Counted from the first letter of the stretch, positions 31,977 to 52,241 are shown. The stretch: 64,000 bases of DNA from a virus (IMGVR_UViG_3300033049_000041:1-64000), one strand, 5' to 3'. The notes: generated by a model not told the origin, from the sequence alone. A program made the numbers and translations.

Positions 31977-32230
31977 GTAACTACTAGTATTCAATAGATC
32001 TTTAGCTAAGAGACTCTTGTTCTACCACTGAACTACACGTCCATAGCAAGTAATGAGATGCTTCTAGGCAGTCATTACTCGATTGGTTTCACCCATTTGG
32101 AGCAATCCAATTGAGGACGTGGTGGGAATCGAACCCACGACGTAGAGATTAAGGTATCTATTGACGTTCATAAATGCTTCAATCTAAAGCTTGACTCACA
32201 AAACTAAATCTAAAAGGCTAGTGTTGCTAC
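31977..32230 (-). ncRNA. Circularly permuted tRNA-Lys(CTT)-like RNA opened at the anticodon loop
   Basis: 3' half (32114-32153) precedes 5' half (32007-32042); GGACGTG/CACGTCC acceptor; flanks pair via TCAATAGAT/ATCTATTGA. Confidence 0.78.
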
Positions 32231-33101: not shown

Positions 33102-33248
33102 GGTGGGTGATCGGACTCGAACCGACGACCTTTCATTTAACAGATGATAATGCGAAGTAACTTATGAAAATCAGTACTACCGTAGTAAACAAATGTATTC
33201 TAAGTATAAAAATGCATAAATGCTCTAACCAACTGAGCTACACCCACC
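33102..33248 (-). ncRNA. Module-bearing tRNA-like RNA 3 (module between D and anticodon arms; His-like acceptor, GTT loop)
   Basis: GGTGGGTG/CACCCACC, D arm GCTC/GAGC, ~70 nt insert with TACTGA...TAAGT-TACTTCG, TCAT-CTGTTAA-ATGA, T arm GTCGG-TTCGAGT-CCGAT. Confidence 0.8.
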
Positions 33249-38628: not shown

Positions 38629-38706
38629 GTAAATAAATAAATAAATAGGTGGCTGCGTGTATACCCAGCTCTTTTCTCTCACACTTACTTAGAGACCTAT
38701 TTAAAA

Positions 38707-38822
38707 TAAGGGGAACTAAAGTAAAGATAGTAATATGGCGGCATCGAAACCGCAACTCTTGAATAAAAATCAAACGCTAAACCAATTAGCACGAAGTAAC
38801 TATCTTAATCAGTATCCCCTTA
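38707..38822 (-). ncRNA. Module-bearing tRNA-like RNA 5 (module replaces the acceptor end)
   Basis: TAAGGGGA-TACTGA-TT-AAGATAGT-TACTTCG, D arm GCTA/TAGC, AC TTGA-TTTTTAT-TCAA, T arm GCGG/CCGC, closed by ACTATCTT and TCCCCTTA. Confidence 0.8.
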
Positions 38823-44573: not shown

Positions 44574-44647
44574 TGATTCTAGAAGGAGTCGAACCTTCAA
44601 CCCCCGCCTTAGAAGGGCGGTGCTCTATCCAGTTGAGCTATAGAACC
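44574..44647 (-). tRNA. tRNA-Arg(TCT)
   Basis: AC CCGCC-CTTCTAA-GGCGG. Confidence 0.93.
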
Positions 44648-44651
44648 AAAA

Positions 44652-44800
44652 TAACAAGCAAACGAAAATACATAGACTGAAAATTAATGTGCCAGATTTA
44701 CTATCTAGTGCCTTAACCATTTGGCTAATTCGGCATGAAGCCAAATACAGGACTCGAACCTATAATACGAAGTAAGTCTATGTTTTAGTATTGCTTGTTA
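44652..44800 (-). ncRNA. Module-bearing RNA 6: circularly permuted tRNA opened at the variable loop
   Basis: TAACAAGCAA-TACTAA-AA-CATAGACT-TACTTCG, then T arm, closed acceptor ATTTGGC-TTCAT-GCCGAAT, D arm, AC CTAGA-TAGTAAA-TCTGG, closed by AGTCTATG and TTGCTTGTTA. Confidence 0.82.
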
Positions 44801-44805
44801 ACTCT

Positions 44806-45822
44806 TTAAACTACATACAAATCTTTTGCAGTTAGTTTTATTTTGTGTTGTTTTACCACATCTTCCCAATCCTTGTAATTGGATGGTGGTAAATATTTAT
44901 TCTCTTTTCTATTATACTCTCCTCTAACTCCAGTGATTTGCCACATAGAATCTGTTGCTGCAGATTTAACTCCATCATCAGTTCCTCTAGTTAATGAAAA
45001 GAAATCATTTCCTGGAAAAGATACATGATCCCATGCAACTAAACTAAAGAAACTAATACCTTCATCAGGTCTAAATAACTGAGGTCTAGGTTGTTTACTA
45101 TTCAAATAAGGTCTAGATGCAAATAATGTTTTACCTCCAATTACCCAACTCTGGTCAACACCAACAGAATACGGATCGTACCATATCCCGAGTATGTTAG
45201 TCCACTTAGTTTTATAGTCTTCTAGTAACTCTAGTAACGTTGCTAACAGCAAGGTATGAACTTCTGCTTTATGTTTCCCTGCAAACTGACCACATCCAAT
45301 TCCAGGAATAGTCACCATTGCAGGAACTCCTTGCTTATTAGCCTTTTCACTAATGTAAGTAAATACTGGAATAAGCTTTTCTCTAACCAATTCTTTATAC
45401 AACTCAGGTACTACTTTACCGTTCTTAACTATATCATAATCTACTGGAGTAATTGTACCAGCAGCTCTAAGAAGTGGTCCAGGAACGTAAACTAATGTAC
45501 CATGAAAAGGTGTTCCGTGTAATGCTGGATTCTGATGTTTACCATCATCATAAATAGTCACTGGAACAGCAACACTTATATTACCAAGCACTTTTAGTTC
45601 CGCATTAGTCCAATCAGAGCCATCACCTTTAATTTCAGATTCAGCAAACATTTCTGGTTGCTTTGTCTCAAGTAGAAAATCTAACTTAGATTCCTTAGAT
45701 AACGGTATTCTTGCCATGCAGGGAAATAACGTAGTATTAGAAAAATTAGTTCCAGCATCACAAAGACTAAAATTCTCTAATCTTTGCATATTCTTCTTAG
45801 AGGTAATTATTGTATAATTCAT
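44806..45822 (-). CDS. MavL/Larg1-like macrodomain (putative ADP-ribosyl glycohydrolase)
   Basis: PGIGCGQFAG loop and VAWDHVSFPGNDF...TDDGVK match the Legionella MavL-type catalytic region as recalled. Confidence 0.7.
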   Translation of the reverse strand: MNYTIITSKKNMQRLENFSLCDAGTNFSNTTLFPCMARIPLSKESKLDFLLETKQPEMFAESEIKGDGSDWTNAELKVLGNISVAVPVTIYDDGKHQNPALHGTPFHGTLVYVPGPLLRAAGTITPVDYDIVKNGKVVPELYKELVREKLIPVFTYISEKANKQGVPAMVTIPGIGCGQFAGKHKAEVHTLLLATLLELLEDYKTKWTNILGIWYDPYSVGVDQSWVIGGKTLFASRPYLNSKQPRPQLFRPDEGISFFSLVAWDHVSFPGNDFFSLTRGTDDGVKSAATDSMWQITGVRGEYNRKENKYLPPSNYKDWEDVVKQHKIKLTAKDLYVV

Positions 45823-46022
45823 AATGTTTGAAAGTCTTTAATTTCTTCTAAAAATACAACTCCTTCCATCGAAATTTCTTCATCTTCTTGCAGTAACTTA
45901 TCATTACCTTTAGTCAATAGAAAGTTGTTTATTTCATCATTAGTAGGAAAAGTAGGATGTTTTATAAAATACATATAATCATCATTGCTTTCACTGCTAG
46001 TAGTTAATACGAATTTACGCAC
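45819..46022 (-). CDS. Hypothetical protein
   Basis: 67 aa, coupled to neighbours. Confidence 0.6.
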   Translation of the reverse strand: MRKFVLTTSSESNDDYMYFIKHPTFPTNDEINNFLLTKGNDKLLQEDEEISMEGVVFLEEIKDFQTL

Positions 46023-46537
46023 TAAAATAATCTTTTATGAGTTAAGAATGCTCCTTCCTTTTCCATATCAGCAATGACATCATGTCTTTCAATGCAAATG
46101 TGTACGTAATCGTCCGTATAATTCTCTCTACAAGTCTCGCATTCATAAGCTAGCCATTTGCCATACTCAGAAATTAAAGTCTCTAAGAATGGCTTTACAT
46201 AAAGTACTCTATGTCTAGGTGCAGATAGTTCACAAGTAACAATTCCTTTCTTTGTATTAAACTCATTAAATAGAGTTTCTAAAGTTTCTTTAAGGACATT
46301 AGCTATCTCCCATTCCTTATGTAGAGCTTCTAATGCTTTGTTGCGATTTCTTAATTGTGACCTTTCAGTTTTAGATTCAAATGTAAAGTCAAGAACCTTA
46401 CATGTTAAAGTCACATTCTCACTTATTCTAGCAGGTATGGAGGTCATTGAACTCATACGTATATCACCTATATGCCACTCTACTTCATTCTTAGTGAACT
46501 CCTTGAACTTAGGGTCATCTATTTCTTCCATTCCCAT
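46022..46537 (-). CDS. Protein with a release-factor (RF-1) domain-like segment lacking GGQ
   Basis: TERSQLRNRNKALEAL matches the RSQxxNxxxAxxxL helix motif. Confidence 0.5.
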   Translation of the reverse strand: MGMEEIDDPKFKEFTKNEVEWHIGDIRMSSMTSIPARISENVTLTCKVLDFTFESKTERSQLRNRNKALEALHKEWEIANVLKETLETLFNEFNTKKGIVTCELSAPRHRVLYVKPFLETLISEYGKWLAYECETCRENYTDDYVHICIERHDVIADMEKEGAFLTHKRLF

Positions 46538-46654
46538 TCTTTTTTTACTTCATTATAAAAAGGATATTCTACATCCGTACCGTATCTAGATGACTTAGTA
46601 AACTTATCCCAAGCTTTTCGTTTCTCGGTGTTTTCTAAACCGATATGTTTATCC

Positions 46655-47143
46655 TTAATTTGCTCGAATGTGTAAACTTTCATTTCTTTCACTTATCTCT
46701 TTGTTTAGTTTAGTCCAAGGTTTGTTTTTGTAATGACTATTTATTGCATGTTTCATCATAAAAAAGAAAGTATCATAACCAGTTTCAAGTCCTAATTCTA
46801 AACAATTCTTAAAATTATTAACAGCATTAGGATTTAAAGGTACTTTCTGCGTAAGCCTAAACAATTTCTTACCACTAATTACATAAGATAAACTAACTCG
46901 TAAGAATTTACGGAAGTTAGCTATATTATAACTAATACTTATATCTCCTATAATCCATTCATTATTGAAATGTGCTAAATAATCATGTGGTATAAATCCC
47001 CAAGTCTTATTACGAATTAAAGCTTCTATAACGTCATCTAATGGAATATCTCCACTTTTTGCTAATGCAACTATTACATCTATATTTCCTTGTTCTTGAC
47101 TATCTTCTACAACCCATTGAATCTTTTCTACATTAGTTAACAT
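46655..47143 (-). CDS. Hypothetical protein
   Basis: 162 aa ORF. Confidence 0.6.
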   Translation of the reverse strand: MLTNVEKIQWVVEDSQEQGNIDVIVALAKSGDIPLDDVIEALIRNKTWGFIPHDYLAHFNNEWIIGDISISYNIANFRKFLRVSLSYVISGKKLFRLTQKVPLNPNAVNNFKNCLELGLETGYDTFFFMMKHAINSHYKNKPWTKLNKEISERNESLHIRAN

Positions 47144-47537
47144 AAGCTTTCATACATTGCTCTAATGCATCAAGTATTTGCTGCTTAGACTTTTCTATAA
47201 TATCTTCTACTTGTGGGGAAATTTCAGAAATATGTTCAAACACACCTTCTACTTTATGATTGTCTTTAATTTCACCTATTACTTTACTATTAACAGTAAC
47301 AATATCTGCGTATTCAGTAGTTCTATGTAATAGATTAGAAACCCATTCTCTTGCCCATATAATAGTAGTACTTTCAACATTCCAATGTAATGTAGGAAAT
47401 CTAGTTTCTAATGGTATATTACTTATATTTTCTACTTTAGCATGTTGAAATAACAATTCTGCTAATTTTCTTGATTTATTCATTCCCCTTCTTTTCAACA
47501 TATAAACGATAATGCAATTCCCTATGACAATTAGCAC
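47133..47537 (-). CDS. Hypothetical protein (true start probably the downstream MNKSRK)
   Basis: 134 aa ORF overlapping the HNH gene end. Confidence 0.55.
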   Translation of the reverse strand: MLIVIGNCIIVYMLKRRGMNKSRKLAELLFQHAKVENISNIPLETRFPTLHWNVESTTIIWAREWVSNLLHRTTEYADIVTVNSKVIGEIKDNHKVEGVFEHISEISPQVEDIIEKSKQQILDALEQCMKAYVN

Positions 47538-47745
47538 AGAGTAACAGACATTTATCTAACTCTTTCTTTAATTTAGTCCATAAAAAAGAATATCCCTTAC
47601 TAATAGTAAAGGATTTATCTTCAGGATTTAAGTGATGAAACTCGAAAGCCCAGGTACATTTATCGTACCCACAATGTTGACAACTACCACCTTTATAATG
47701 GATGGCTTTCATCTTTGTTTGTTGCTTTTTAAGTTTCTTTTTCAT
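47476..47745 (-). CDS. HNH endonuclease
   Basis: CQHCGY..C...EFHH.NP...KCLLLCANCHRELH; directly downstream of tRNA-Ile. Confidence 0.85.
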   Translation of the reverse strand: MKKKLKKQQTKMKAIHYKGGSCQHCGYDKCTWAFEFHHLNPEDKSFTISKGYSFLWTKLKKELDKCLLLCANCHRELHYRLYVEKKGNE

Positions 47746-47750
47746 TGTTG

Positions 47751-47822
47751 TAGTGATAGATAGATTCGAACTATCAACCTCCTTCGTATCAGAAAGGTGC
47801 TCTGCCGTTGAGCTATACCACT
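47751..47822 (-). tRNA. tRNA-Ile(GAT)
   Basis: AC CCTTT-CTGATAC-GAAGG. Confidence 0.9.
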
Positions 47823-47917
47823 TGGTGGGCTAGGATAGGATTTCAACCTACACATTCCATAATTGGACATCAATCTCACACAATTGACGCAGCTATTTCA
47901 TTCTGCCATCCCGTCCC
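47823..47917 (-). ncRNA. Degenerate class II tRNA-like RNA with 8 nt anticodon loop and encoded CCA
   Basis: D stem GCAG/CTGC, TCAAT-TGTGTGAG-ATTGA, variable TCCA/TGGA, T arm GTAGG-TTGAAAT-CCTAT, ends GCCC-A-CCA. Confidence 0.55.
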
Positions 47918-47927
47918 AGGTAATTAG

Positions 47928-48000
47928 ACGCACAGGACAGATTCGAACTGCCGTACTTCGGATTATGAGTCCGACGCTAAACCATCTCAGCTACCGTGCA
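47928..48000 (-). tRNA. tRNA-Met(CAT), elongator-like
   Basis: AC TCGGA-CTCATAA-TCCGA. Confidence 0.85.
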
Positions 48001-48005
48001 TTCTG

Positions 48006-48479
48006 TTATTTTCTTTTCTTTTTTCTTAATTCAAGTATTTCTTTATACTTTAACTTCCACTCATCATTGAGTAAATCTAATTGAATTTCAATTTCTTCTA
48101 ATGTAAATATACCTAATTCTAGTTGAATTACTAAATGTAAAACTCTAGCCATTGCAATCATACATCTTTCAGGAGTCCAACAGATATACTTATACTTACT
48201 ATTATCCATGTATAAGTTTATCATACACATAAATCCAGCATCATCATTATAAGCTATATTATAAAGGCTCTTAGTACTACAACTACTATTTTTAAATTGC
48301 CAATAGTATTGCATGTCATGCCAGTCATACTTAGGATTTTTAAACAAAAACTTTATTAAAGTAATTACTTCAAAATTCATTAATAATTCTTCATCTACCT
48401 TAATAGCATCTAGTAAAGTAAATGCTAACTCATTTTTATCTTCAGAGTTAATCATTAAAGCTAACTCTGGTTCATTCAT
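48006..48479 (-). CDS. Hypothetical protein
   Basis: 157 aa ORF. Confidence 0.6.
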   Translation of the reverse strand: MNEPELALMINSEDKNELAFTLLDAIKVDEELLMNFEVITLIKFLFKNPKYDWHDMQYYWQFKNSSCSTKSLYNIAYNDDAGFMCMINLYMDNSKYKYICWTPERCMIAMARVLHLVIQLELGIFTLEEIEIQLDLLNDEWKLKYKEILELRKKKRK

Positions 48480-48711
48480 TATTTGTAATTATTATGTTTC
48501 CTGATACTTCTATATACTTTTCTGTAACTTTATCTTTAAAGTAGTAACCATTGTTAGATCTGTAAACTACTCCAGCACTATTCCAAGAGTGAGTAACTAC
48601 ATTGTTATGGTTAAGTAACGTTATCTTAAAAGATTCATTAGATTCAGTTTCTTTTTTATAACTACATGAAATAACTAGAAGTGTAGACAATATAAATAAA
48701 AATTGTTTCAT
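48472..48711 (-). CDS. Lipoprotein
   Basis: MKQFLFILSTLLVIS-C lipobox. Confidence 0.65.
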   Translation of the reverse strand: MKQFLFILSTLLVISCSYKKETESNESFKITLLNHNNVVTHSWNSAGVVYRSNNGYYFKDKVTEKYIEVSGNIIITNNE

Positions 48712-48734
48712 GGTAATTTTTTAGGTTATAAACA

Positions 48735-48898
48735 AAGGGAGCAAACAAAGCGATTCAAACTGTAATGTAATAAGCTAAATCCCAATTCTAGTGTGTCTAC
48801 CAGTTCCACCACCGCCCATTTAATTGACATACTGGTCGGGCGGGAAGGATTCGAACCTCCAAATACGAAGTAAGTTTGAAAATTAGTATTGCTCCCTT
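48735..48898 (-). ncRNA. Module-bearing RNA 7: circularly permuted tRNA with internal ACCA and linker
   Basis: AAGGGAGCAA-TACTAA-TT-TTCAAACT-TACTTCG, T arm GGAGG-TTCGAAT-CCTTC, CCGCCCG-A-CCA, 14 nt linker, TGGGCGG, Leu-type D arm, AC CTAGA-ATTGGGA-TTTAG, closed by AGTTTGAA and TTGCTCCCTT. Confidence 0.82.
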
Positions 48899-48909
48899 AT
48901 ATTGTTATG

Positions 48910-49392
48910 TTACTCTATAATAGTAACTTTTATATTAATTATATCTTTCTTATCAATAGACCTTTTAAGTAATGCTAATAAGCAATTAATATCAGCTTTA
49001 CCTACTATTACACCACCTAATAAATTGGTTCTACCATTAGTTAAGTTAATGAATAATGATTTGAACTCACCTAATTCTTTATTAAAATCATCTGTATCAA
49101 ATACCTGACGTATTTCATTACCTTTATACATAATACTAGTATTACTCAATCTAATAGCTGATAACAAAGCTTTACCTTCTTTAATATCAGTCATAGTATA
49201 ATTGGCTTTTGTAATAGCAAAATTAGATTTATTACATTCATACTCAATTACATAAGCTGGAACCCACCAAATATAACCAAAGAATGATTTCTTCTGTTCT
49301 ACATGATAAGATTTACTTGAATGATTTAAACTATTTATAGCATTAGTTTCTACTAATCTGTATATTGGTTTTAATATACTTAAGTTAAACAT
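48910..49392 (-). CDS. Hypothetical protein
   Basis: 160 aa ORF. Confidence 0.6.
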   Translation of the reverse strand: MFNLSILKPIYRLVETNAINSLNHSSKSYHVEQKKSFFGYIWWVPAYVIEYECNKSNFAITKANYTMTDIKEGKALLSAIRLSNTSIMYKGNEIRQVFDTDDFNKELGEFKSLFINLTNGRTNLLGGVIVGKADINCLLALLKRSIDKKDIINIKVTIIE

Positions 49393-51754: not shown

Positions 51755-51857
51755 ATTTGTATCTTAAGTTAATAAGCTTTGTTTATACCCAACTTAATGG
51801 TTCCAGGAATAATTTAGACGGGTTTCCTGATTTCTTTACCGTACTTATTAACCATTG

Positions 51858-52241
51858 TGGAGCTGCGGGGAGTCGAACCCCGGTGTTCCCACTTTCAATT
51901 AAAATTTCTACAAGTTTAGTAGTATCTTTAGATAGTTCTTCTCGTTGGGTGATTCTACGTACCTTCCTGAGTATAGTTACTGATATACCATACAAGCCAT
52001 AACTTCTTGTAATCCTTTTCCGAGTAATCGTGTTCGTGTATAACGGAGCAGTAATATCGGAGTCAACAGGCTCTACATTATTTGACGAGTAAGGTTAGTC
52101 GAAACTAATCTTAAGCCGCCATACGAACTGGTGCATAAGCTCCATCTAAGGTTTACCTTCAATATTTATTAATCGCTTATCAAGCCTCAGCGATACTTGC
52201 TTGTTCTAACATCTAAGTGGGAGTCGAATCCAGTCAGCCCC
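51858..52241 (-). ncRNA. ssrA: tmRNA
   Basis: 5' GGGGCTGACTGGATTCGAC, 3' CGGGG-TTCGACT-CCCCG-CAGCTCC-A with G3-U70; tag ORF 52111-52143 encodes (A)GAYAPVRMAA-stop. Confidence 0.93.

What the first reader, a model, noticed from the sequence alone, without database searches (positions are those of the whole stretch)
44652..48898. Class C module RNAs: circularly permuted tRNAs, one poised to become a two-piece CCA-ended tRNA
Seen: at 44652-44800 and 48735-48898 the order is module 5' strand, T arm, acceptor 3' strand, linker, acceptor 5' strand, D arm, anticodon arm, module 3' strand. RNA 6 has a sealed acceptor with a 5 nt loop; RNA 7 has CCGCCCG-A-CCA and a 14 nt linker. Established: YrlA has T-acceptor-D order but no anticodon arm, and two-piece tmRNAs mature by linker removal. 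Inference: RNA 7 may mature into a chargeable two-piece tRNA with a Leu-type body and TGG loop, carrying the module as its variable arm.
Basis: partly seen in the sequence, partly recalled or inferred. Interest (0 to 1): 0.78.

Follow-up and report, generated by a model that had tools for sequence, protein, structure and literature searches.

The report
Ro60-linked phage RNAs mimicking whole tRNAs
Two small phage RNAs are rearranged copies of a complete tRNA, anticodon arm included, and belong to a conserved, so far undescribed family found beside the gene for the RNA-binding protein Ro60 in large phages.

Summary
On the minus strand, 44652-44800 (RNA6) and 48735-48898 (RNA7) read: module 5' strand, T arm, 7-bp acceptor stem closed by a loop, D arm, anticodon arm, module 3' strand.

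This layout is not peculiar to this window. A covariance model built only from four RNAs of other phage contigs finds both at full length (75 and 45 bits). I collected 30 distinct members, in which 97.6% of paired cells form standard pairs and 29 of 31 pairs covary. The tRNA 15:48 tertiary pair also covaries.

In a search that started from the RNA, 18 of 19 viral records carrying it also encode Ro60. The window encodes Ro60 at 53048-54880.

Best reading: a new variant of the YrlA-type Y RNAs. The presumed Ro-binding stem leaves at the variable-arm position, so a canonical 7-nt anticodon loop is kept. That loop changes between otherwise conserved orthologues and often repeats the anticodon of an ordinary tRNA encoded nearby.

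The two-piece idea for RNA7 has a published precedent in Mycobacterium smegmatis YrlA (RNase P cleavage plus CCA). It also has family support: 12 of 30 members carry N-CCA in the acceptor loop. Charging and decoding are unsupported. No RNA data exist.

The parts
44652..44800 (-). RNA6, a class C module RNA of 149 nt. It is a complete permuted tRNA mimic with a capped acceptor stem.
   Evidence: Sequence read. The minimum-energy fold gives P1, P2, T, acceptor, D and anticodon arms, z -5.46. R1 scores 75.3 bits and R2 116.2 bits.
44768..44800 (-). RNA6 module 5' strand: P1 (44791-44799), a bulged U, a 2-bp AC helix, an internal loop, P2 (44775-44783) and the core UACUUCG (44768-44774).
44692..44763 (-). 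RNA6 tRNA-like core: T arm 44747-44763, acceptor 3' strand 44740-44746, loop UUCAU 44735-44739, acceptor 5' strand 44728-44734, D arm 44710-44725, anticodon arm 44692-44708 (loop UAGUAAA 44697-44703).
   Evidence: The anticodon arm resembles the phage tRNA-Tyr arm CUAGA-CUGUAAA-UCUAG.
44652..44678 (-). RNA6 module 3' strand: P2 3' strand 44670-44678, a U-rich loop, GU, and P1 3' strand 44653-44661. The tRNA-Arg(UCU) gene starts 5 nt further on, at 44647.
48735..48898 (-). RNA7, a class C module RNA of 164 nt. It is a permuted tRNA mimic with an internal ACCA and the longest acceptor loop in the family.
   Evidence: Sequence read. R1 scores 44.6 bits and R2 99.2 bits. Folding z is -2.49.
48866..48898 (-). 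RNA7 module 5' strand: P1 48889-48898, a bulged U, AC, an internal loop, P2 48873-48878 and the core UACUUCG 48866-48872.
48775..48860 (-). RNA7 tRNA-like core: T arm 48844-48860, acceptor 3' strand 48837-48843, A73 at 48836, CCA 48833-48835, 14-nt linker 48819-48832, acceptor 5' strand 48812-48818, Leu-type D arm 48793-48809, anticodon arm 48775-48791 (loop AUUGGGA 48780-48786).
48735..48761 (-). RNA7 module 3' strand: P2 3' strand 48756-48761, a loop, GU, and P1 3' strand 48735-48744.
53048..54880 (-). Ro60 (TROVE plus vWA) homologue of 610 aa, the presumed protein partner of the module RNAs.
   Evidence: One search found 465 homologues at E <= 0.001. The best non-self hit has 58% identity. 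Most listed hits carry PF05731 and some are named 60 kDa SS-A/Ro. Direct Pfam is weak: E 0.0028, 17.3 bits, cut-off 23.

Best explanation
RNA6 and RNA7 are members of a conserved family of Ro60-associated non-coding RNAs of large tRNA-rich phages. The family is a variant of the YrlA-type bacterial Y RNAs.

Architecture (shown). The two ends pair into a two-helix module. P1 carries a bulged U followed by a 2-bp helix, then comes an asymmetric internal loop, then P2, then the conserved UUAC(U/A)UCG. The same module occurs as stand-alone hairpins and fused to other tRNA pieces next to Ro60 genes. I take it to be the Ro60-binding handle; that step is an inference. The rest folds as a complete class-II-like tRNA. 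The module stands where the long variable arm would be, the acceptor stem is closed by a loop, and the anticodon arm is intact.

Function (inferred). Ro60 carries the RNA, and the RNA presents a full tRNA shape with a particular anticodon loop to a tRNA-recognising partner. It would act as a tether or decoy rather than as a decoder. The anticodon loop sets the specificity. It is the only part that changes between otherwise conserved orthologues, and it often copies an ordinary tRNA of the same phage.

Processing (possible). Members with N-CCA and a longer acceptor loop, RNA7 most of all, may be opened by RNase P into two pieces held together by the module, as shown for M. smegmatis YrlA.
For: 1. 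Family membership. Model R1, built without window sequences, finds both RNAs at full length.
2. Structure. Across 30 distinct members, 97.6% of 929 cells pair and 29 of 31 pairs change on both sides. No shuffle of 500 reaches this, and slid controls pair at 46% or less.
3. tRNA hallmarks: U8 27/30, A14 30/30, T loop UUCGANY 30/30, Levitt 15:48 A:U or G:C in 28/30, anticodon loop U33 27/30 and R37 30/30.
4. Ro60 link, starting from the protein. Ro60-gene flanks yielded class C RNAs in 13 of 68 viral loci and 8 of 67 metagenome loci. All lie on the Ro60 strand and 0.1-5.3 kb upstream of the gene.
5. Ro60 link, starting from the RNA. A pattern scan gave 21 viral stretches, 19 of them on records with a class C RNA. 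Of those 19 records, 18 hold a Ro60 homologue; the exception is a 17%-complete fragment. The 2 stretches without the RNA lie on records without Ro60.
6. Stand-alone module hairpins lie just upstream of Ro60 genes: L034:4049, L046:8421 and L070:9333.
7. The window encodes Ro60 and also has a sub-threshold YrlA match at 31988-32164.
8. Among four orthologues, 9 of 144 columns vary, and 5 of those are anticodon-loop positions 32-36. The flanking DNA is far more diverged.
9. Precedents. YrlA is a tRNA mimic, and M. smegmatis YrlA is cut by RNase P and gains CCA (PMC4201824, passages). A phage Ro60 binds phage Y-like RNAs and host PNPase (PMC12135203, passages).
Against: - Binding to Ro60 is inferred from co-occurrence only.
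- The published Ro-site motif GNCGAAN0-1G is absent from the module.
- The Rfam YrlA model gives no match to RNA6 or RNA7 even at E <= 10, nor to the orthologue in L011.
- In this window the two RNAs lie 4.2 and 8.3 kb downstream of Ro60. In the other loci the RNA lies upstream.
- Only 21 of the 135 Ro60 loci examined carry class C, so Ro60 does not need it.
- No expression or end-mapping data exist: no RNA holder was listed.
- The alignments used for pair counts were fitted to the model structure, which favours it.
- No effector partner is known.
Confidence: 0.7

Rival explanations
1. RNA7, and perhaps all N-CCA members, matures through RNase P cleavage and 3' trimming into a two-piece CCA-ended tRNA. 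That tRNA is aminoacylated and used in translation or another aminoacyl-tRNA-dependent reaction, with the module as its variable arm.
For: - RNA7 has a 7-bp acceptor stem, A73, an encoded CCA and a 14-nt linker. Only 1 of 24 ordinary tRNA genes here encodes CCA.
- 12 of 30 family members have N-CCA at the start of an acceptor loop of 8 nt or more. In 9 of those 12 a U precedes position +1, and in 11 of 12 position +1 is G.
- M. smegmatis YrlA is cleaved by RNase P and ends in CCA in vivo. Its authors name the 7-bp acceptor stem as the determinant (PMC4201824).
- The anticodon loops are canonical, and RNA7 has G37 with anticodon UGG, as real tRNA-Pro does (that rule is recalled).
- From recall: LeuRS and SerRS ignore the anticodon and read the class II body and the discriminator. 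One constant body with varying anticodons is therefore not by itself incompatible with charging.
Against: - 18 of 30 members, RNA6 among them, lack CCA, and most of these have acceptor loops of 4-8 nt.
- The body stays constant while the anticodon changes (GAA, GUA, CAU in one clade). If charged, the same amino acid would go to unrelated codons.
- In 15 of 28 scanned cases the anticodon already belongs to an ordinary tRNA nearby, so no decoding gap is filled.
- GUA loops carry A33 in 3 of 3 cases, which breaks the U-turn rule.
- Class A sisters with the same module have no acceptor stem.
- A variable arm of some 25 bp bound by a 60-kDa ring is hard to fit in a ribosome (inference).
- No CCA-adding enzyme was found in the record, but the record is only 41% complete.
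Confidence: 0.12
2. They are permuted tRNA genes in the manner of red algae and some archaea. Leader and trailer pair, the ends are joined into a circle, the acceptor loop is opened, and an ordinary linear tRNA results. On this view the module is only a processing signal.
For: - The 3' half precedes the 5' half and the flanks pair.
- A closed version of the same module sits as an insert inside an otherwise normal tRNA at 33102-33247, much as introns and permuted genes share one motif in those organisms (recalled; one search gave search listings only).
Against: - By inspection there is no bulge-helix-bulge motif. The junction has loops of 10-13 and 12-15 nt.
- The host should be bacterial, since the phage carries a tmRNA.
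- No RtcB or RNA ligase was found in the record, although it is incomplete.
- The module sequence motifs are conserved, and the module also occurs without any tRNA part beside Ro60 genes.
- The tight link to Ro60 is left unexplained.
- The product would duplicate existing tRNAs.
Confidence: 0.04
3. They are chance or decayed remains: the 3' end of one dead tRNA gene followed by the 5' part of another, with fortuitous flank pairing.
For: Tandem tRNAs can imitate the T-acceptor-D order. One such false positive did score 85.5 bits with R2: L038:13573-13717, which is tRNA-Leu followed by tRNA-Arg. Chen et al. 2014 warn of this.
Against: - No T arm follows the anticodon arm in RNA6 or RNA7, and ARAGORN calls no tRNA there.
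- The acceptor strands of a single unit pair 7 of 7.
- 30 distinct homologues covary in all helices, including P1 and P2.
Confidence: 0.01

Closest known systems
YrlA (Y RNA-like A; Rfam RF02553; Chen et al. 2014, PMC4201824)
   Same: - Encoded near the Ro60 (rsr) gene and on its strand.
- The 5' and 3' ends pair into a stem.
- The order is T arm, closed acceptor stem, D arm.
- tRNA tertiary signatures are present, including Levitt-pair covariation.
- Found in phages as well as bacteria.
   Different: - In YrlA the Ro stem takes the place of the anticodon stem, and a V hairpin precedes the T arm (passages). Here the stem takes the variable-arm place and a full 5-bp, 7-nt anticodon arm follows the D arm.
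- The GNCGAAN0-1G motif is absent.
- The Rfam model does not match.
M. smegmatis YrlA, processed into two halves
   Same: A 7-bp acceptor stem. The paper reports cleavage at the RNase P site, a CCA tail on the 5' half, and both halves staying with Rsr. This is the direct precedent for the proposed fate of RNA7.
   Different: CCA was completed by addition in M. smegmatis, whereas RNA7 and 11 relatives encode it. The M. smegmatis RNA has no anticodon arm. Nothing has been measured for the phage RNAs.
D. radiodurans Yrn1
   Same: A Ro60-bound Y RNA that its authors could model with a potential anticodon arm with a 5-bp stem.
   Different: The Yrn1 loop has 6 nt, it has no full D arm and no V arm, and its arm order relative to the ends differs. 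The phage RNAs have canonical 7-nt loops and all four arms.
Permuted tRNA genes (Cyanidioschyzon merolae, some archaea) and two-piece tmRNA
   Same: The gene order is 3' half, linker, 5' half. In two-piece tmRNA an encoded CCA lies before the linker, which is removed (recalled).
   Different: There is no bulge-helix-bulge motif, no tag reading frame and no pseudoknots. The Rfam permuted-tmRNA models do not match RNA6 or RNA7. Here the flanks are a conserved Ro60-linked module.
Thermus phage phiLo Ro60 with Yrl1 and Yrl2 (PMC12135203)
   Same: A phage-encoded Ro60 with phage-encoded Y-like RNAs upstream of its gene. The complex recruits host PNPase (passages).
   Different: Yrl1 and Yrl2 are stem-bulge-stem RNAs with a CGAA motif. 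The paper does not use the words tRNA-like or anticodon (0 occurrences each).

Membership tests
YrlA-type Y RNA | Encoded close to a Ro60 (TROVE) gene and on its strand | tested here: met
   Ro60 lies at 53048-54880(-). RNA7 is 4.2 kb and RNA6 8.3 kb away on the same strand. Homologues lie 0.1-5.3 kb upstream of Ro60 genes. 18 of 19 records with the RNA hold Ro60.
YrlA-type Y RNA | A tRNA-like domain with T arm, closed acceptor stem and D arm in that order, with tRNA tertiary signatures | tested here: met
YrlA-type Y RNA | The GNCGAAN0-1G motif near the 5' end (presumed Ro site) | tested here: not met
   The 5' strands read AAUACUAA...UUACUUCG in the window and GUAGUAA...UUAC(U/A)UCG in the family. 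No CGAA occurs on the RNA strand. The motif definition comes from the passages read.
YrlA-type Y RNA | The Ro stem occupies the anticodon-stem position, with no anticodon loop | tested here: not met
   A 5-bp, 7-nt arm follows the D arm in 30 of 30 members, so the stem sits between that arm and the T arm.
YrlA-type Y RNA | Match to Rfam RF02553 | tested here: not met
   No match at E <= 10 over 44640-48920. The orthologue L011:8426-8569 is not matched either.
YrlA-type Y RNA | Physically bound by Ro60 | not testable with these tools
   Needs a gel-shift or co-precipitation experiment.
Canonical tRNA | Free 5' and 3' ends at the acceptor stem, and recognition by tRNA finders | tested here: not met
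   ARAGORN gives no call. The Rfam tRNA model gives only an 18-bit partial match in RNA6, E 4.4.
Permuted tRNA gene (circular intermediate) | A bulge-helix-bulge motif formed by leader and trailer | tested here: not met
   By inspection of the folds and the alignment. The P2-to-core junction has loops of 10-13 and 12-15 nt, not 3-nt bulges around a 4-bp helix.
Permuted tRNA gene (circular intermediate) | A splicing endonuclease or RNA ligase is available | tested here: inconclusive
   No RtcB (PF01139) or RNA ligase (PF09414) in the 85-kb record, but the record is 41% complete and the host is unknown.
Two-piece (permuted) tmRNA | A tag reading frame and pseudoknots, and a match to the tmRNA models | tested here: not met
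   Each RNA is only 149-164 nt. No Rfam tmRNA-family match falls on RNA6 or RNA7. The phage has an ordinary one-piece tmRNA at 51855-52241.

The most novel reading that the evidence does not exclude
Class C RNAs are programmable anticodon-loop baits. A Ro60 particle carries a full tRNA look-alike whose anticodon loop is exchanged between phage lineages. The loop would match whichever tRNA a host tRNA-targeting factor goes for, such as an anticodon nuclease or a modification enzyme. That would make this an RNA-based counter-defence with a swappable specificity cassette.

The A33 found only with GUA loops would then be a way to bind such a factor without being processed. From recall, the queuosine-inserting enzyme and some anticodon nucleases read U33-G34-U35.

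An even bolder variant: the N-CCA members are opened by RNase P and charged by an anticodon-blind synthetase.
Probability: 0.25. Interest if true: 0.85.

Novelty: new variant of a known kind. Interest (0 to 1): 0.64.

Why it matters
Y RNAs tether Ro60 to other proteins, and what the tRNA-like part of bacterial Y RNAs is for remains open.

This family keeps the one tRNA feature that YrlA lacks, the anticodon arm. It holds the rest of the RNA fixed and varies only the anticodon loop. That points to anticodon-specific recognition as the job of the RNA, and it gives a direct experimental handle: swap the loop and look for the partner.

It also adds an unannotated RNA class to large marine and freshwater phages that carry near-complete tRNA sets. 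Model R2 can find further members in other genomes.

If the loops track host anticodon nucleases, this would be a new kind of phage counter-defence.

Tried and rejected
- Known RNA families: Rfam at gathering and E-value thresholds found nothing on RNA6 or RNA7. Known small ribozymes are therefore not supported.
- Self-splicing or permuted-intron idea, raised by the module insert in the tRNA at 33102-33247: dropped after the Ro60 link and the stand-alone modules appeared.
- Promoter explanation for the conserved 5' strand: dropped because P1 and P2 covary with the 3' strand. The promoter and terminator scan was uninformative, with 14 promoter-like sites against 23 expected.
- First class C pattern scan of viral contigs: 8 stretches, none an RNA homologue.
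- Single-protein locus searches with Ro60 and with the MavL-like protein: no relatives.
- Metagenome scan with the Ro60 subfamily alignment: no relative closer than 39% identity. Conservation of the RNA7 ACCA and linker in close kin could therefore not be tested.
- MAFFT alignments A2-A4 misplaced the acceptor, D and P2 strands, so they were not used for models.
- The automatic P1 finder gave wrong ends for 6 of 11 RNAs. I set the ends by hand.
- L038:13573-13717 was first counted as class C, then removed as a tandem tRNA pair. It and the YrlA-type row L012:8268-8422 are still in alignment A7 and in the seed of R2. The clean count is.
- The genome contigs pattern scan mostly hit tmRNA 3' ends. 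Only two short contigs (L163, L178) held class C.
- Sequencing runs: no RNA holder listed, only one DNA holder that may be the source sample.
- PDB sequence search with Ro60 gave nothing useful. No structure was predicted.
- Supplementary tables of Chen et al. 2014 list their phage YrlA hits. They were not seen and could hold related RNAs.
- Searches for a prior description of a Y RNA with an anticodon arm found none. The 2020 Annual Review (PMC10870794) is not held.

Full report
CONTEXT. The window is the first 64 kb of an 85,231-bp IMG/VR virus record that CheckV rates 41% complete. GC is 32%. The only sequencing run that holds it is a seawater metagenome. All RNA genes lie on the minus strand: 25 tRNA calls by ARAGORN, 28 tRNA matches by Rfam, and a one-piece tmRNA at 51855-52241.

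THE OBSERVATION.
- RNA6: module 5' strand; T arm AUAGG-UUCGAGU-CCUGU; acceptor AUUUGGC / GCCGAAU closed by UUCAU; UA; a class-II-type D arm; anticodon arm CUAGA-UAGUAAA-UCUGG; module 3' strand.
- RNA7: T arm; CCGCCCG-A-CCA; a 14-nt linker; UGGGCGG; a Leu-type D arm; anticodon arm CUAGA-AUUGGGA-UUUAG.
- The minimum-energy fold of RNA6 reproduces every arm, z -5.46. RNA7 folds less distinctly, z -2.49, with 5 of 200 shuffles as good.
- Neither RNA is called by ARAGORN or by Rfam, even at E <= 10.

THE MODULE. Seven minus-strand RNAs in the window carry the exact core UACUUCG in the same setting, at 20947, 26186, 33153, 33791, 38792, 44768 and 48866. Each has P1, an internal loop, P2 and the core. 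The stem sequences differ from copy to copy but stay complementary. In three of them the module replaces the acceptor stem of a tRNA body. In one it is closed as a hairpin inside a tRNA. In RNA6 and RNA7 it flanks the permuted tRNA.

RO60. The 610-aa ORF at 53048-54880(-) has 465 homologues at E <= 0.001. The nearest non-self hit is 58% identical. Most listed hits carry the TROVE family, and several are named 60 kDa SS-A/Ro. The direct Pfam score is below cut-off: 17.3 bits against 23. A sub-threshold Rfam YrlA match lies at 31988-32164 (42.5 bits, gathering score 69).

DO HOMOLOGUES KEEP THE PERMUTATION? An alignment of Ro60 proteins brought in 68 viral loci and 67 metagenome loci.
- A script looking for T arm, acceptor 3' strand, loop, acceptor 5' strand and D arm after a module core found the same layout, with an anticodon arm, in other contigs.
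- I built model R1 from four such RNAs (L010, L011, L012, L068), none from the window, with a hand-set structure.
- Over 1.23 Mb, R1 matched RNA6 at 75.3 bits (E 1.3e-14) and RNA7 at 44.6 bits (E 3.3e-7), both over all 143 positions. All 93 matches at E <= 1 lay on the Ro60 strand.
- Model R2, rebuilt from the aligned hits, separates two score groups. Class C RNAs score 85 bits or more, and other module RNAs 66 bits or less.
- One 85.5-bit hit, L038:13573-13717, turned out to be tRNA-Leu followed by tRNA-Arg, and I removed it.
- The clean set holds 30 distinct RNAs. In it, 97.6% of 929 cells pair and 29 of 31 pairs change on both sides. No shuffle of 500 reaches this, and slid partners pair at 46% or less. 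All six helices are supported. The anticodon stem is 99.3% paired, and all 5 of its pairs change on both sides.
- These alignments are fitted to the model, which favours the structure. The size of the contrast with the slid controls makes that a minor worry.

tRNA SIGNATURES.
- U8 in 27 of 30 and A14 in 30 of 30.
- T loop UUCGANY in 30 of 30.
- The nucleotide just before the T stem pairs with D-loop position 15 as A:U (17) or G:C (11), with 2 exceptions. That is the Levitt-pair covariation Chen et al. used for YrlA. It places the module exactly where a variable arm ends.
- The D arm is of the 3-bp class II kind, which fits a long arm at that site.
- Next to P1 there is a bulged U followed by a 2-bp helix. 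It reads AG/CU in the family and AC/GU in both window RNAs, and 96.9% of its cells pair.

ASSOCIATION WITH RO60, STARTING FROM THE RNA. A pattern for the module core plus T arm hit 21 viral stretches.
- Twelve lie on contigs already fetched through Ro60.
- Of the nine new ones, seven hold class C RNAs at 104 bits or more.
- Six of those seven records encode a Ro60 homologue. The seventh is a 17%-complete fragment.
- The two stretches without the RNA lie on records with no Ro60.
- Stand-alone module hairpins lie just upstream of Ro60 genes in L034, L046 and L070.
- The converse does not hold: class C is present in only 13 of 68 viral and 8 of 67 metagenome Ro60 loci.

THE ANTICODON LOOP.
- All 30 loops have 7 nt. 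U33 is present in 27, R37 in 30 and A38 in 28.
- Fifteen different anticodons occur.
- The only G37 goes with UGG (RNA7).
- A33 occurs only with GUA, in 3 of 3 such loops: RNA6, L011 and L068.
- Among L010, L011, L012 and L068 the RNA is 98% identical. Nine of 144 columns vary, and five of those are loop positions 32-36. The surrounding DNA is much more diverged.
- RNA6 and RNA7 likewise share the stem strand CUAGA while their loops differ.
- ARAGORN was run on the stretches holding 28 of the 30 RNAs. In 15 of those 28, an ordinary tRNA with the same anticodon lies in the same stretch. These include tRNA-Tyr(GUA) and tRNA-Pro(UGG) of this window. The other 13 stretches are partial loci, so absence there means little.

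THE ACCEPTOR LOOP.
- Twelve of 30 begin N-CCA and are 8-18 nt long. These come from about seven lineages.
- The other 18 lack CCA, and most of them have loops of 4-8 nt.
- RNA7 has the longest loop. RNA6 (UUCAU) is of the capped kind.
- Only 1 of 24 ordinary tRNA genes in the window encodes CCA. The RNA7 CCA is therefore not a habit of this genome.

LITERATURE.
- Chen et al. 2014 (PMC4201824; passages read) describe YrlA with T, acceptor, D and V arms, a presumed Ro site GNCGAAN0-1G, and 355 candidates in 254 bacteria and 22 phages. They report that M. smegmatis YrlA is cut at the RNase P site in vitro and in vivo, carries CCA, and stays with Rsr as two halves. They model a 6-nt-loop anticodon arm for D. 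radiodurans Yrn1.
- A 2025 paper on Thermus phage phiLo (PMC12135203; passages read) shows a phage Ro60 binding two CGAA-motif Y-like RNAs and host PNPase.
- Five searches found no description of a Y RNA with a canonical anticodon arm.

READING. Shown:
- a conserved structured RNA family;
- a complete tRNA-like fold permuted at the variable arm;
- tight co-occurrence with Ro60;
- an anticodon loop that alone varies.

Inferred:
- the module is the Ro60 handle;
- the RNA presents a tRNA shape with a chosen anticodon loop to some tRNA-recognising partner.

Possible: RNase P opens the N-CCA members. Unsupported: charging and decoding. No RtcB, RNA ligase or CCA-adding enzyme was found in the incomplete record. 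No RNA data exist.

VERDICT. This is a new variant of a known kind (the YrlA-type Y RNAs). Earlier first-reader notes of this scan on the same genome agree with this reading. I saw no note of it on other DNA.

Noticed in passing
window 31988-32164 (-): A sub-threshold Rfam YrlA match (42.5 bits, gathering score 69) with a 73-nt insert in the acceptor loop. It appears to be a more ordinary YrlA-type RNA in the same phage.
   Followed up: partly
window 20856-20974, 26090-26213, about 38700-38820 (-): Module RNAs in which the module replaces the acceptor stem of a tRNA body. Their anticodon loops read UCA, UUA and UUU. ARAGORN labels the second one tRNA-Stop(tta).
   Followed up: partly
window 33102-33247 (-): A tRNA with an insert of about 75 nt that is the module closed as a hairpin, placed after the D arm. 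The Rfam tRNA match scores 45.2 bits.
   Followed up: partly
window, 24 tRNA genes between 26007 and 48000 (-): Only 1 of 24 encodes CCA after the discriminator. Fourteen have CTA and six have CAA at that place, a regular near-CCA pattern.
   Followed up: partly
window 44806-45822 (-): A 338-aa protein with a strong match to the MavL macrodomain family (PF24754, E 1.3e-94), encoded immediately upstream of RNA6 on the same strand.
   Followed up: no
window 46022-46537 (-): A 171-aa ORF with a weak match to the RF-1 (peptidyl-tRNA hydrolase) domain, E 0.0055, below cut-off.
   Followed up: no
loci L152-L180 (genome contigs): The pattern for the module core plus T arm mostly hits the 3' ends of bacterial tmRNA genes. 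The module-to-T-arm junction therefore resembles the helix 2 to T-arm junction of tmRNA in sequence and spacing.
   Followed up: partly
L038:13573-13717: A tandem tRNA-Leu(CAA) / tRNA-Arg(CCU) pair scores 85.5 bits with the class C model. This is a false positive to guard against in wider scans.
   Followed up: yes
records G002, G004, G005, G006 (Ro60 homologue matches): The Ro60 matches list one TAA inside the match. This may simply be the alignment running past the stop codon.
   Followed up: no
L186:7519-7663 and L186:11417-11562: One 17.7-kb phage contig carries two class C RNAs with different anticodon loops (CAU and GCA) on either side of its Ro60 gene.
   Followed up: partly
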